From: a virus
Taxonomy: Duplodnaviria; Heunggongvirae; Uroviricota; Caudoviricetes
Strand: one strand, 5' to 3'
IMG/VR virus record: IMGVR_UViG_2529292905_000030
Length of the DNA: 10,556 nucleotides
The translations under genes were made by a program, and so were the position numbers. The notes below the pieces were generated by a model. That model was not told the DNA's origin, did not search any database, and saw only the letters and a program-made list of their open reading frames with translations. Numbering within the stretch: position 1 is the stretch's first letter; each line of letters opens with the position of its first letter. Positions 1 to 2,094 of the stretch are shown here, piece by piece.

Positions 1-735
1 AATAACACCACGCGGATTGCGACCACTGAGTTTGTTCAGGCCGCTATTACCGCTCTGATTAACGGTGCGCCAGCCACGCTGGACACACTGAAAGAAATTG
101 CCGCAGCCATTAACAATGACCCGAAATTCAGTACCACCATTAACAATGCGCTGTCAGGTAAGCAGCCACTGGATGAGACGCTGACTCATTTGAGTGGAAA
201 GGATGTAGCTGGTCTTCTCACATACCTTGGTTTGGGAGAAGGCTCTGCATTACCCGTTGGCGTGCCTGTTCCGTGGCCCTCAGCCACTCCGCCAACAGGC
301 TGGCTGAAATGCAATGGTGCGGCTTTTTCTGCTGAAGAATACCCGGAACTGGCAAAGGCTTACCAGACCAATAAATTGCCTGATTTACGCGGTGAATTTA
401 TTCGTGGCTGGGATGACGGTCGCGGGATTGATACTGGTCGCGCTTTGCTTAATTGGCAGCCACACACAATTTTGGACCATGCACACTATATGGAATTATG
501 GACAGGGGACGGACTCGCCGCAGGAAGTGCACGGGAAGGAGTAAACCCAGGAATACTGGCTACATACGGTGACGGGGGAATAGTTAAAACGGACGAACCC
601 GGTCTTAAGGTGCCTTCCTCACTACGAGCTCTTAGCTCTCGTAGTGTTAAACGTTATGGTGAAATTAGTGGAAATGTAGGTACAGAAACTCGTCCTCGTA
701 ACATCGCTTTTAATTATATTGTGAGGGCCGCATGA
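1..735 (+). CDS. Tail fibre protein, 3' portion (P2 H / Mu S-like); 5' end truncated by the window. Constant part up to about 227, variable receptor-binding part 228-735
   Basis: Frame 1 is open from position 1 to the stop at 733-735. The translation contains a tail-collar type motif (WLKCNGAAFSAEEYPELAKAY...LPDLRGEFIRGWDDGRG) and a C-terminal ...NIAFNYIVRAA ending typical of Mu S / P2 H type fibres. The stop overlaps the start of the next gene (ATGA). Confidence 0.85.
   Translation, partial: NNTTRIATTEFVQAAITALINGAPATLDTLKEIAAAINNDPKFSTTINNALSGKQPLDETLTHLSGKDVAGLLTYLGLGEGSALPVGVPVPWPSATPPTGWLKCNGAAFSAEEYPELAKAYQTNKLPDLRGEFIRGWDDGRGIDTGRALLNWQPHTILDHAHYMELWTGDGLAAGSAREGVNPGILATYGDGGIVKTDEPGLKVPSSLRALSSRSVKRYGEISGNVGTETRPRNIAFNYIVRAA
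215..240. repeat. Invertase crossover site (gix/pix/hix-like), left copy, inside the tail-fibre coding sequence: TTCTCACATACC-TT-GGTTTGGGAGAA
   Basis: 26-bp imperfect palindrome with two 12-bp half-sites around a 2-bp core. The right half-site is the exact reverse complement of the left half-site of the copy at 2080-2105. It resembles the TTNNNNNAAACC-NN-GGTTT... architecture of gix/hix sites as recalled. Confidence 0.7.
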
Positions 736-1337
736 TGAATAAAGCTGTATTAAATAGCGAACTCATTGCCATAAAAGCGGGAGACATTATCATTTATAAT
801 TATGATGGTGAAACGCGGGAATATATTTCTACATCAACTGAATATCTCGCTGTCGGCGTCGGTATCCCGGCATGTTCCTGTCTGGATGCACCAGGTATAC
901 ATAAAGCTGGTTATGCAATCTGTCGCTCTGTAGATTTAAATTCATGGGAATATGTGCCAGACCATCGCGGTGAAGTTGTCTATAGTACCGAAACGGGAGA
1001 TACCAGAGAAATCACAGTTCCGGGTGATTACCCTGAAAATACAACCACTATCGCCCCATTAACGCCATACGATAAATGGGATGGTGAGAAATGGGTGACC
1101 GATACTGAGGCACAGCATAGCGCCGCAGTAGAAGCGGCAGAAGCACAGCGCCAGTCACTGATTGATGCAGCAATGGCTTCCATCAGTCTGATTCAGCTGA
1201 AATTACAGGCCGGGCGGAAACTGACGCAGGCAGAAACAACCCGGCTTAACGCTGTGCTGGATTACATTGACGCGGTGACGGCAACAGATCCCAGCACCGC
1301 GCCGGATGTCATCTGGCCTGAACTGCCGGAGGCGTAG
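732..1337 (+). CDS. Tail fibre assembly protein (P2 G / Mu U-like), the expressed copy in the current orientation
   Basis: 201-aa ORF translationally coupled to the fibre gene. C-terminal motif LDYIDAVTATDPSTAPDVIWPELP is paralogous to the C-terminus of the convergent ORF 1309-1728. Confidence 0.85.
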   Translation: MMNKAVLNSELIAIKAGDIIIYNYDGETREYISTSTEYLAVGVGIPACSCLDAPGIHKAGYAICRSVDLNSWEYVPDHRGEVVYSTETGDTREITVPGDYPENTTTIAPLTPYDKWDGEKWVTDTEAQHSAAVEAAEAQRQSLIDAAMASISLIQLKLQAGRKLTQAETTRLNAVLDYIDAVTATDPSTAPDVIWPELPEA

Positions 1338-1728
1338 GCCATTCAATATCTGGCGCACTGGAGGTATCAACCAGTTCCAGTGCGTCCAGATAATCCAGCC
1401 ATAAATTATATTGCGCCAGTTCCTCACTTTTCAGACGACCAATAGCCGCTTTACCTGGCCATTGTCTGCTGTTCATGTGCTCGTTGGCTTCATTAATAAG
1501 TTTTCTTTTTTTCAAATCCGCCAATGCAATAAGGTTTTCTTTTGATAAAGGTGGTTGCTCTGTCAAAACCGGATATCCCTCCTGATTGCTGACTATTTTC
1601 ATGCCATTATCCTGACCATCCAGTAGTAACAGCCATTCATCCGTGGTTATCTCAACAGCATCTGAAGGTGCTTTATTTAAATCGGTAAAAAAACCATTTT
1701 CTTTTTGTGAATAGAAGTATCTATCCAT
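1309..1728 (-). CDS. Alternative tail fibre assembly protein (U'-like), in inverted orientation within the invertible segment
   Basis: 139-aa ORF on the minus strand with C-terminal motif LDYLDALELVDTSSAPDIEWPTPP paralogous to Tfa at 732-1337. Its 3' end overlaps the + strand tfa by 29 bp (convergent). Confidence 0.8.
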   Translation of the reverse strand: MDRYFYSQKENGFFTDLNKAPSDAVEITTDEWLLLLDGQDNGMKIVSNQEGYPVLTEQPPLSKENLIALADLKKRKLINEANEHMNSRQWPGKAAIGRLKSEELAQYNLWLDYLDALELVDTSSAPDIEWPTPPAVQAR

Positions 1729-1731
1729 TTA

Positions 1732-2094
1732 TTAATCTCCAAAAGCAATCCAGTAAGCAAAAGGATTTATTCCTTGCTCAGTCACAGATGACATCAGGGA
1801 AAATTGCGATGGTGAAACAGGTAACGCTGCAAAACTAACCATTGTTGACACACCTGACCGTGCATTATCGTACGATGCAACAACACAATAATTGGTATTG
1901 CTGAAAGATATCGGCAGGGTGATATTTACAGGTGAGCCTAATGGCCCTGATGCTGATATTCCCATTTGAATGATGGTTCCATCAGGCAATTTTCTCCAGC
2001 GATTAGAACTCGGATTTCTTTTCCAGGCTGACATATCCGGTATCTGATTTTCTCCTGTACCCACATCCCTTTTCGCCGCTTCTCCCAAACCAAC
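1732..2094 (-). CDS. Alternative tail-fibre C-terminal (variable, receptor-binding) segment, promoterless and startless; expressed only after inversion as a fusion to the constant part of the fibre gene
   Basis: Minus-strand reading frame ...VGLGEAAKRDVGTGENQIPDMS... reproduces the GLGE residues that the + strand fibre encodes at the left crossover site (LGLGE, 226-240). The 2-bp core sits at codon positions 2-3 in both copies, so fusion is in frame. The ATG at 2133 in the ORF track lies outside the segment and is not a real start. Confidence 0.75.
   Translation of the reverse strand, partial: VGLGEAAKRDVGTGENQIPDMSAWKRNPSSNRWRKLPDGTIIQMGISASGPLGSPVNITLPISFSNTNYCVVASYDNARSGVSTMVSFAALPVSPSQFSLMSSVTEQGINPFAYWIAFGD

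What the first reader, a model, noticed from the sequence alone, without database searches (positions are those of the whole stretch)
1..2094. The two alternative receptor-binding ends are of unrelated types
The currently expressed end (228-735) carries a tail-collar type domain (CNGAAFS...LPDLRGEFIRGW...) ending NIAFNYIVRAA. The silent end (2094-1732, minus strand) is a different fold (GENQIPDMSAWKRNPSSNRW...INPFAYWIAFGD). Each is paired with its own assembly chaperone (201 aa and 139 aa) that share only their C-terminal about 25 residues. The switch therefore exchanges the whole adhesin-chaperone pair, which suggests two distinct surface receptors rather than fine tuning.
Basis: seen in the sequence. 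Interest (0 to 1): 0.5.

Follow-up and report, generated by a model that had tools for sequence, protein, structure and literature searches.

The report
Invertible tail-fibre tip switch in prophage

Summary
Bases 227-2093 form an 1867-bp invertible segment. It is bounded by two exact inverted copies of TTGGTTTGGGAGAAG, and an intact Pin/Gin-type serine invertase gene sits next to it (2161-2754).

- **Expressed tip (229-735):** a phage tail-collar domain. It is homologous to the T4 gp37 and gp12 fibre tips.
- **Unfused tip (2091-1732, minus strand):** a gp53-like lectin head. Its predicted fold matches the R2/R1 pyocin fibre foot and AP22 gp53.
- **Relatedness:** profile comparison aligns only the junction peptide LGLGE, so the two tips are not detectably related.
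- **Chaperones:** each tip precedes its own Caudo_TAP chaperone. These share about 65 C-terminal residues, not 25.
- **Function of the switch:** inversion in silico gives an in-frame fusion, and both orientations occur in natural E. coli genomes and viral contigs.

This is not new. The e14 P segment of E. coli K-12 has the same make-up and the same crossover sequence. 34 of 59 related viral loci carry the same mixed pair. The claim of two distinct receptors is plausible but untested, because relatives of both folds bind LPS sugars. I rate it ordinary and already known, with low interest.

The parts
1..226 (+). Constant part of the P2 H-type tail-fibre gene. It runs off the left edge of the window and ends ...SGKDVAGLLTYLGLGE across the crossover site.
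   Evidence: Translation. It is 91% identical to the corresponding part of the 395-aa H protein of the O103 RM8385 prophage, which carries Pfam Phage_tail_fib PF12571 at its N terminus.
215..240 (.). Left 26-bp crossover site, TTCTCACATACC-TT-GGTTTGGGAGAA, with the core dinucleotide at 227-228. It lies inside the fibre reading frame and encodes LGLGE.
   Evidence: Inverted repeat I1. The 15-mer at 227-241 is exact. It equals the e14 P-segment repeat TTGGTTTGGGAGAAGG quoted in PMC12529663.
229..735 (+). Variable end now fused to the fibre (Sv). It has a collar scaffold, a variable insertion of about 75 aa that contains a DHAH motif, and a C-terminal strand RPRNIAFNYIVRAA.
   Evidence: Pfam Collar, E 2.5e-15. 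PDB sequence hits to the T4 gp37 tip 2xgf (E 6e-16, three collinear stretches), T4 gp12, and the short tail fibre 9cuy. The scaffold is conserved and the insertion variable among relatives.
732..1337 (+). 201-aa tail-fibre assembly chaperone, cognate to the collar end (TfaE type). Its start overlaps the Sv stop codon (ATGA).
   Evidence: Pfam Caudo_TAP, E 4e-31. 89% identical to K-12 TfaE. It always follows collar-type ends in related loci.
1309..1728 (-). 139-aa tail-fibre assembly chaperone, cognate to the gp53-like end (TfaP type). It converges on the 201-aa gene and overlaps it by 29 nt.
   Evidence: Pfam Caudo_TAP, E 9e-26. 54% identical to K-12 TfaP and 97% to the RM8385 homologue. It always follows gp53-like ends in related loci.
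1732..2091 (-). Alternative variable end (Sv'). It has a conserved linker AAKRDVGTGENQIPDMS followed by a gp53-like lectin-type beta head. It is intact.
2080..2105 (.). Right 26-bp crossover site, TTCTCCCAAACC-AA-CGTTTAAGAAAA, with the core dinucleotide at 2092-2093. It is in inverted orientation to the left site.
2094..2133 (-). Short leader lying outside the segment (MMPVSRNLCIFLNV...). It gives the unfused end its own ATG and so forms a 133-aa ORF.
   Evidence: The ORF is identical to the RefSeq 'gp53-like domain-containing protein' cluster P0001. e14 stfE has a similar leader, MMPFACYFFIFINV. No promoter-like site was found for it.
2161..2754 (+). Serine DNA invertase of the Pin/Gin/Hin/Cin family, 197 aa, with the catalytic Ser9 motif YVRVSTNDQ.
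   Evidence: Pfam Resolvase, E 3e-52, plus HTH_7. 87% identical to PinE and 78% to Mu Gin. The 5' coding DNA is conserved with pinE and gin.

Best explanation
This is a Pin-type invertible tail-fibre segment, a close relative of the e14 'P segment', sitting in the H tail-fibre gene of an intact-looking P2-like prophage next to fieF.

The serine invertase (2161-2754) recombines the two 26-bp sites and flips bases 227-2093. In the orientation seen here, the constant part of H is fused to a collar-type tip and co-transcribed with its 201-aa chaperone. After inversion, the same constant part is fused in frame to a gp53-like lectin head and co-transcribed with the 139-aa chaperone.

Each chaperone has a different N-terminal domain, presumably matched to its own tip, and a shared C-terminal helical region. 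Phage particles from a lysogen population would therefore carry one of two structurally unrelated receptor-binding tips. This is bet-hedging on host range.

**Shown here:** the anatomy, the family and fold assignments, the in-frame result of inversion, the natural occurrence of both orientations, and the strict pairing of tip and chaperone.

**Inferred:** that inversion is active in this particular strain, that expression comes only from the H late promoter, and that the two tips recognise different receptors.
For: - **ORFs and families:**
- **Crossover sites:** exact, inverted, and only two in the window. They are identical to the e14 P-segment repeats (PMC12529663).
- **Invertase:** intact, 87% identical to PinE and 78% to Gin, with the catalytic Ser motif.
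- **Inversion in silico:** gives ...LTYLGLGEAAKRDVGTGENQ...AFGD, then a stop, then the 139-aa chaperone ATG.
- **Both orientations in nature:** the inverted junction is found contiguous in 19 complete E. coli genomes at 96-98.6% identity, and the observed junction in 9. An inverted-state relative has a full 395-aa H gene.
- **Collar tip:** homologous to T4 gp37 and gp12.
- **No relation between the tips:**. The AP22 gp53 preprint states that its lectin head differs in fold from T4 gp12.
- **Viral contig survey:** of 59 usable loci, 15 have the orientation seen here, 19 are inverted, and 3 are gp53/gp53.
- **Tip-chaperone pairing:** 53 of 56 collar ends are followed by the 201-aa type, and 62 of 72 gp53-like ends by the 139-aa type. 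There are no crossed pairs.
- **Chaperone modularity:** matches published descriptions of these proteins, with a variable N-terminal domain that binds the fibre and a conserved C-terminal helical domain (PMC9608196).
- **Published inversions:** measured in P2-like prophages of EPEC and in e14 (PMC4272514).
- **Phage context:** the rest of the window is a P2-type tail module.
Against: - There is no direct evidence of inversion in this strain, because the window is a single static sequence.
- The AlphaFold2 model of the collar-type tip was unusable (pLDDT 36). Its fold rests on sequence homology to solved fibres.
- The Fis-dependent enhancer was not identified explicitly. Only DNA conservation with pinE and gin was seen.
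- The receptors are unknown. Relatives of both folds bind LPS sugars, so 'two different receptor classes' is not shown.
- 22 of the 59 surveyed loci had one or both ends not recognised by my two home-made profiles, so the frequency of mixed pairs is approximate.
Confidence: 0.85

Rival explanations
1. The two tips recognise variants of the same receptor class, for example different LPS outer-core structures. The switch would then be fine tuning within one receptor type despite the different folds.
For: - The gp53-like model matches the R1 and R2 pyocin fibre feet and carbohydrate-binding lectins.
- AP22 gp53 binds sugar surrogates.
- The collar tip is homologous to the T4 gp12 and gp37 tips.
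- From established knowledge, not tested here: T4 gp12, phage P2 and the R-type pyocins bind LPS core sugars, and both orientations of Mu's G segment use LPS variants.
Against: - The folds are unrelated and the chaperone N-terminal domains differ.
- T4 gp37 can also use the protein OmpC (established knowledge).
- Nothing in the sequence identifies a ligand.
Confidence: 0.4
2. The cassette also works in the lysogen as a defence device. The end not fused to H sits behind its own short leader, here as the 133-aa ORF at 1732-2133. It would be made as a free gp53-like protein that masks surface receptors against other phages, as proposed for StfE2 of e14.
For: - The 133-aa ORF has its own ATG outside the segment.
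- RefSeq annotates it as a protein with 194 identical members.
- It has the same build as e14 StfE2, namely the stfE leader plus the StfP gp53-like end. StfE2 is reported to block T2 adsorption when produced from a plasmid and after P-segment inversion (PMC12529663).
- The leader resembles that of e14.
Against: - No promoter-like site for this ORF was found in the simple scan.
- The ORF lacks a trimerising shaft, and its cognate chaperone lies downstream.
- K-12 annotates the equivalent stfE as a pseudogene.
- The prophage here has a complete tail module, so host-range switching suffices as a function.
- Conservation of the leader may only reflect the overlapping crossover site and the invertase promoter region.
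Confidence: 0.12
3. The switch is a frozen relic. The prophage or its invertase is inactive, and the minus-strand end is a dead spare copy.
For: The window shows only one orientation. Many E. coli prophages are defective.
Against: - Both variable ends, both chaperones and the invertase are open and full length.
- The crossover 15-mers are identical.
- Both orientations occur among close relatives.
- Inversion has been measured in comparable prophages (PMC4272514; PMC12529663).
Confidence: 0.08

Closest known systems
Invertible P segment of the e14 element of E. coli K-12 (stfP-tfaP / tfaE-stfE, pinE)
   Same: - Same gene order and the same mixed pair. StfP is Gp53-like_C with a 137-aa TfaP. 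StfE is Collar with a 200-aa TfaE.
- Same crossover sequence, TTGGTTTGGGAGAAGG.
- The invertase is 87% identical to PinE, and the 201-aa chaperone is 89% identical to TfaE.
- Same 29-nt convergent overlap of the two chaperone genes.
   Different: - In e14 the constant part is a short remnant in a defective lambdoid element. Here the cassette is joined to a full P2 H-type fibre gene in a prophage with a complete P2-type tail module.
- The segment is 1867 bp here against 1797 bp in e14.
- The receptor-binding parts have diverged. The collar tip is 58% identical to StfE with a different insertion. The gp53-like end gave no tblastn match to StfP at E <= 1e-5.
G segment of phage Mu (S/U and S'/U', Gin) and C segment of phage P1
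   Same: - A serine invertase sits beside a segment that swaps the C-terminal part of the tail fibre together with a Caudo_TAP chaperone, changing host range.
- The invertase here is 78% identical to Gin.
- Mu's two variable ends are also unrelated beyond the junction peptide.
   Different: - Mu's variable ends are about 320-330 aa and give other Pfam matches, Gp34_trimer and gp37_C. Neither is a Collar or Gp53-like_C match.
- Mu's U and U' are 56% identical along their whole length. Here the two chaperones share only the C-terminal 65 residues or so.
Invertible tail-fibre cassettes of P2-like prophages and P2-type tailocins (EPEC E2348/69 prophages; Fels-2 Fin; carotovoricin Er)
   Same: These are P2-type tail modules with an invertase between the fibre and chaperone genes and the sheath gene. 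Inversion was measured in EPEC P2-like prophages (PMC4272514), and invertases are often seen at this P2 hotspot (bioRxiv 10.1101/2024.10.15.618418). A close relative in the inverted state is E. coli O103 RM8385.
   Different: Some of these elements have three sites and more than two alternative ends. This window has only two sites. Fels-2 and carotovoricin were not compared here and are recalled from the literature cited.
Solved receptor-binding tips: T4 gp37 tip (2XGF) and gp12 (1OCY) for the collar end; R2/R1 pyocin fibres (6CU2, 6CL6, 6CXB) and AP22 gp53 (4MTM) for the other end
   Same: - The collar end aligns with gp37 in three collinear stretches: the collar, the HxH motif, and the last strand ...NIAFNYIVR.A.
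   Different: - The insertion in the collar end is about 75 aa with a single HxH motif, much shorter than the gp37 needle and head.
- Sequence identity of the gp53-like end to the solved heads is only 15-23%, and no PDB sequence hit was found.

Membership tests
Gin/Hin/Cin/Pin-type invertible tail-fibre segment | An adjacent serine recombinase of the invertase subfamily, with an N-terminal catalytic Ser and a C-terminal HTH | tested here: met
   Pfam Resolvase, E 3e-52, plus HTH_7, E 9e-13. YVRVSTNDQ motif. 87% identical to PinE and 78% to Gin.
Gin/Hin/Cin/Pin-type invertible tail-fibre segment | Two 26-bp crossover sites in inverted orientation with matching core dinucleotides, one of them inside the fibre reading frame | tested here: met
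   Sites at 215-240 and 2080-2105 with TT/AA cores. The 15-mer is exact and occurs only twice in the window. It is identical to the e14 repeats.
Gin/Hin/Cin/Pin-type invertible tail-fibre segment | Inversion yields an alternative in-frame C terminus followed by its own chaperone gene | tested here: met
   In-silico inversion. Natural inverted-state relatives exist.
Gin/Hin/Cin/Pin-type invertible tail-fibre segment | A Fis-dependent recombinational enhancer in the 5' part of the invertase gene | tested here: inconclusive
   The first 200 nt or so of the gene are conserved at DNA level with pinE and gin. No Fis sites were mapped.
Gin/Hin/Cin/Pin-type invertible tail-fibre segment | The segment actually inverts in vivo | not testable with these tools
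   The evidence is indirect only. Both orientations occur among close relatives: 19 against 9 complete genomes, and 19 against 15 viral contigs. Published measurements exist for e14 and for P2-like prophages.
Phage tail collar domain (Pfam PF07484), T4 gp37/gp12-type tip | Score above the Pfam gathering threshold, and homology to solved collar-bearing fibres | tested here: met
   56.6 bits against a cut-off of 24. PDB hits 2xgf at E 6e-16, 9cuy at E 4.5e-16, and 1ocy/1pdi at E 1e-5. The fold itself was not confirmed by a model (pLDDT 36).
Gp53-like C-terminal domain (Pfam PF21882), R-pyocin foot / AP22 gp53 lectin head | Score above the Pfam gathering threshold, and an 8-stranded lectin-type beta head | tested here: met
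Tail-fibre assembly proteins (Pfam Caudo_TAP PF02413; Mu U / lambda Tfa / P2 G type) | A Pfam match, a position immediately downstream of the fibre end, and a conserved C-terminal region with a variable N-terminal domain | tested here: met
   108 and 91 bits against a cut-off of 22.1. Only the C-terminal 65 aa are similar, at 34% identity. The modular description is in PMC9608196. Chaperone activity itself was not tested.
P2-like (Peduovirus-type) prophage tail module | Gene order H, chaperone, FI sheath, FII tube, E/E', T, U, D, ogr | tested here: met
   Pfam Phage_sheath_1, Phage_tube (FII), Phage_TAC_7 (E), PhageMin_Tail, Phage_P2_GpU, Phage_GPD and Ogr_Delta, in that order. 367 complete E. 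coli genomes carry >=80% of the window.

The most novel reading that the evidence does not exclude
The cassette may serve two purposes. Besides switching the host range of the virion between two unrelated tips, the end that is not fused to H could be expressed in the lysogen. Here that is the 133-aa ORF at 2133-1732, made of a leader plus the gp53-like lectin head. It would act as a free receptor-masking protein that excludes other phages, as claimed for StfE2 of e14. Flipping the segment would then also flip which phages the lysogen resists.
Probability: 0.1. Interest if true: 0.55.

Novelty: already known. Interest (0 to 1): 0.15.

Why it matters
This result mainly serves as a well-documented example. 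It shows that one invertase switch can swap whole receptor-binding modules of different folds, each with its matched chaperone, onto a common fibre shaft at a fixed junction (LGLGE). That junction and the strict tip-chaperone pairing are practical information for engineering tail fibres of P2-type phages and tailocins. It does not open a new question. The e14 P segment, Mu G and P1 C established the principle decades ago, and genome annotation already labels both domains.

Tried and rejected
- **AlphaFold2 on the collar-type end.** With a shallow alignment of close relatives it gave an unusable model (pLDDT 36). No fold search was run on it, and I relied on sequence homology to solved fibres.
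- **PDB sequence searches.** Searches with the gp53-like end and with both chaperones found nothing significant.
- **Remote homology between the two ends.** BLASTP and hhalign detected none beyond the junction peptide.
- **More than two alternative ends (shufflon-like).** Rejected, because the window has only two crossover sites.
- **Own promoter for the 133-aa minus-strand ORF.** None was found by the simple consensus scan, which is weak evidence either way.
- **Silent copy as a decayed remnant.** Rejected. It is intact and identical to the expressed end of a relative.
- **Literature.** The e14 analysis paper PMC331406 is not held in the library. One literature query failed on term length.
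- **Viral contig survey.** It used two home-made HMMs, so 22 of 59 loci remained partly unclassified.
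Full report
**What is in the window**

The 10.5-kb window is the tail end of a P2-like prophage followed by the chromosomal gene fieF.
- From 2814 onward the genes are sheath (FI), tube (FII), E, tape measure, U, D and Ogr. All have strong Pfam matches in the P2 order. FieF follows at 9636-10556.
- 367 complete E. coli genomes carry at least 80% of the window at about 97% identity. This is a common E. coli prophage.
- The finding concerns bases 1-2094 and, in practice, everything up to the invertase gene ending at 2754.

**Check of the observation**

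The tail-fibre reading frame enters from the left edge and stops at 735. Inside it, at 215-240, lies a 26-bp site, TTCTCACATACC-TT-GGTTTGGGAGAA. Its inverted partner lies at 2080-2105. The 15-mer TTGGTTTGGGAGAAG is exact in both copies and occurs nowhere else in the window. It is the same sequence quoted as the crossover repeat of the e14 P segment (PMC12529663).

Between the sites lie four elements:
- the expressed variable end (229-735, +);
- a 201-aa ORF (732-1337, +), whose ATG overlaps the stop of the fibre gene;
- a convergent 139-aa ORF (1309-1728, -);
- the alternative variable end (1732-2091, -).

Just outside the segment is a 197-aa serine recombinase gene (2161-2754). It has Pfam Resolvase and HTH_7 domains and the catalytic motif YVRVSTNDQ. 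It is 87% identical to PinE and 78% to Mu Gin.

**Are the two ends unrelated?**

Yes, as far as sequence and structure tools can see.

The expressed end:
- It matches Pfam Collar (PF07484, E 2.5e-15).
- It matches solved fibres by sequence: the T4 gp37 tip 2XGF at E 6e-16, a short tail fibre 9CUY at E 4.5e-16, and T4 gp12.
- The gp37 match falls in three collinear stretches: the collar, an HxH motif, and the final strand ...NIAFNYIVR.A. This implies the gp37 topology, in which the chain leaves the collar, forms a tip and returns.
- Among relatives, the first 75 residues or so and the last 16 are conserved. The insertion of 70-85 residues between them is hypervariable but keeps the His motif. 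That pattern is what one expects of a receptor-binding tip.
- My AlphaFold2 model of this end was unusable (pLDDT 36). The fold assignment therefore rests on homology.

The alternative end:
- It matches Pfam Gp53-like_C (PF21882, E 1.3e-13).
- Its model is good (pLDDT 82, eight strands).
- The authors of the AP22 gp53 structure state that this lectin head differs in fold from T4 gp12 (bioRxiv 10.1101/518761).

BLASTP finds nothing between the two ends. A profile-profile comparison of the two family alignments aligns only the junction peptide LGLGE, at 1% probability.

**The chaperones**

Both are Caudo_TAP proteins (E 4e-31 and 9e-26). Directly compared, they share 34% identity over the C-terminal 65 residues and nothing before that.

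This fits the published picture of these proteins: a variable N-terminal domain that binds the fibre and a conserved C-terminal helical domain that drives trimerisation (PMC9608196, citing North et al. 2019).

**Is the switch functional, and is the spare end intact?**
- Inverting 227-2093 in silico fuses the constant part in frame to ...LGLGEAAKRDVGTGENQIPDMS...AFGD. A stop follows, and then the ATG of the 139-aa chaperone.
- The spare end is 100% identical to a RefSeq protein cluster with 194 members. It is also 100% identical to the expressed C terminus of the 395-aa H protein of a P2-like prophage in E. coli O103 RM8385. That prophage has the whole cassette in the opposite orientation.
- The in-silico inverted junction is present as one contiguous match in 19 complete E. 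coli genomes. The junction seen in the window is present in 9.
- I surveyed 79 viral contigs retrieved with the invertase, using profiles built from my alignments. Of the 59 with enough upstream DNA, 15 had the orientation seen here, 19 the inverted one, and 3 carried gp53-like ends on both sides. In 22, one or both ends were not recognised.
- Across all retrieved contigs the pairing is strict. Collar ends are followed by the 201-aa chaperone type in 53 of 56 cases. gp53-like ends are followed by the 139-aa type in 62 of 72. No crossed pairs occur.

**Comparison with what is known**
- **e14 of E. coli K-12.** The P segment has exactly this make-up. StfP is Gp53-like_C with the 137-aa TfaP. StfE is Collar with the 200-aa TfaE. 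pinE is adjacent, and the two chaperone genes show the same 29-nt convergent overlap. The 201-aa chaperone here is 89% identical to TfaE. A 2025 paper on that segment already notes the gp53-like domain and its relation to the R1 pyocin and AP22 gp53 (PMC12529663).
- **P2-like prophages.** Inversions of tail-fibre ends have been measured in cultures of EPEC (PMC4272514). Invertases are reported as frequent at this P2 hotspot.
- **Phage Mu.** Its two variable ends are likewise unrelated beyond the junction. Its two chaperones, however, are 56% identical throughout. The e14-type cassette is therefore a more complete module swap than Mu's, a difference of degree.
- **Genome annotation.** RefSeq already labels the two ends 'phage tail-collar fiber domain-containing protein' and 'gp53-like domain-containing protein'.

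**Mechanism and rivals**

The best-supported mechanism is the textbook one. The invertase flips the segment, so virions from a lysogen population carry one of two tips. Each tip is folded by its own chaperone, and host range is thereby hedged.

The step from 'different folds' to 'different receptors' is an inference. Relatives of both folds bind LPS core sugars, so the two tips may still address variants of one receptor class. I put that at about 0.4.

A less conventional reading comes from the e14 work. The end not fused to H has its own ATG outside the segment, giving the 133-aa ORF at 2133-1732. This corresponds in build to StfE2, which is reported to block T2 adsorption. I found no promoter-like site for it and rate this at about 0.1.

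A frozen, inactive switch is unlikely, because every part is intact and both states occur among close relatives.

**Verdict**

The system is a member of a long-known kind and is essentially the e14 P segment attached to a P2-type fibre gene. Interest is low.

Noticed in passing
window 1309-1337 (also 1256-1273 / 1382-1399): The two convergent chaperone genes overlap by 29 nt at their 3' ends. K-12 e14 tfaP/tfaE show the same overlap, while Mu U/U' do not overlap. The 18-nt inverted repeat I4 is simply the conserved LDYIDA/LDYLDA motif of the two chaperones read on opposite strands.
   Followed up: partly
window 1732-2133 (-): The 'silent' end has its own ATG and a 14-residue leader encoded outside the invertible segment, giving a 133-aa ORF identical to a RefSeq cluster with 194 members. 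It has the same build as 'StfE2' of e14, which is reported to block phage T2 adsorption (PMC12529663). The simple scan found no promoter-like site for it.
   Followed up: partly
window 229-735 and relatives (alignment A5): In collar-type ends the first 75 or so and the last 16 residues are nearly invariant. The insertion of 70-85 residues between them is replaced wholesale between relatives but keeps a DHxH motif. This suggests a metal-binding site at the base of a swappable tip, as in T4 gp37 and gp12.
   Followed up: partly
window 4592-5019: The E gene (4592-4867) is followed by an overlapping ORF in another frame (4864-5019). This is the layout expected for the P2 E/E+E' tail-chaperone programmed frameshift. 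The slippery site was not looked for.
   Followed up: no
window 9417-9635: The gap between ogr (ending 9416) and fieF (starting 9636) should hold the prophage end and its attachment site. The same prophage-fieF junction is present in hundreds of complete E. coli genomes.
   Followed up: no
IMG/VR loci L005, L041 and others: A minority of related cassettes carry gp53-like ends with 139-aa-type chaperones on both sides. A few loci (e.g. L040) show a third end, hinting at multi-site versions. In 22 of 59 loci, one or both ends were not recognised by either of my two profiles.
   Followed up: no
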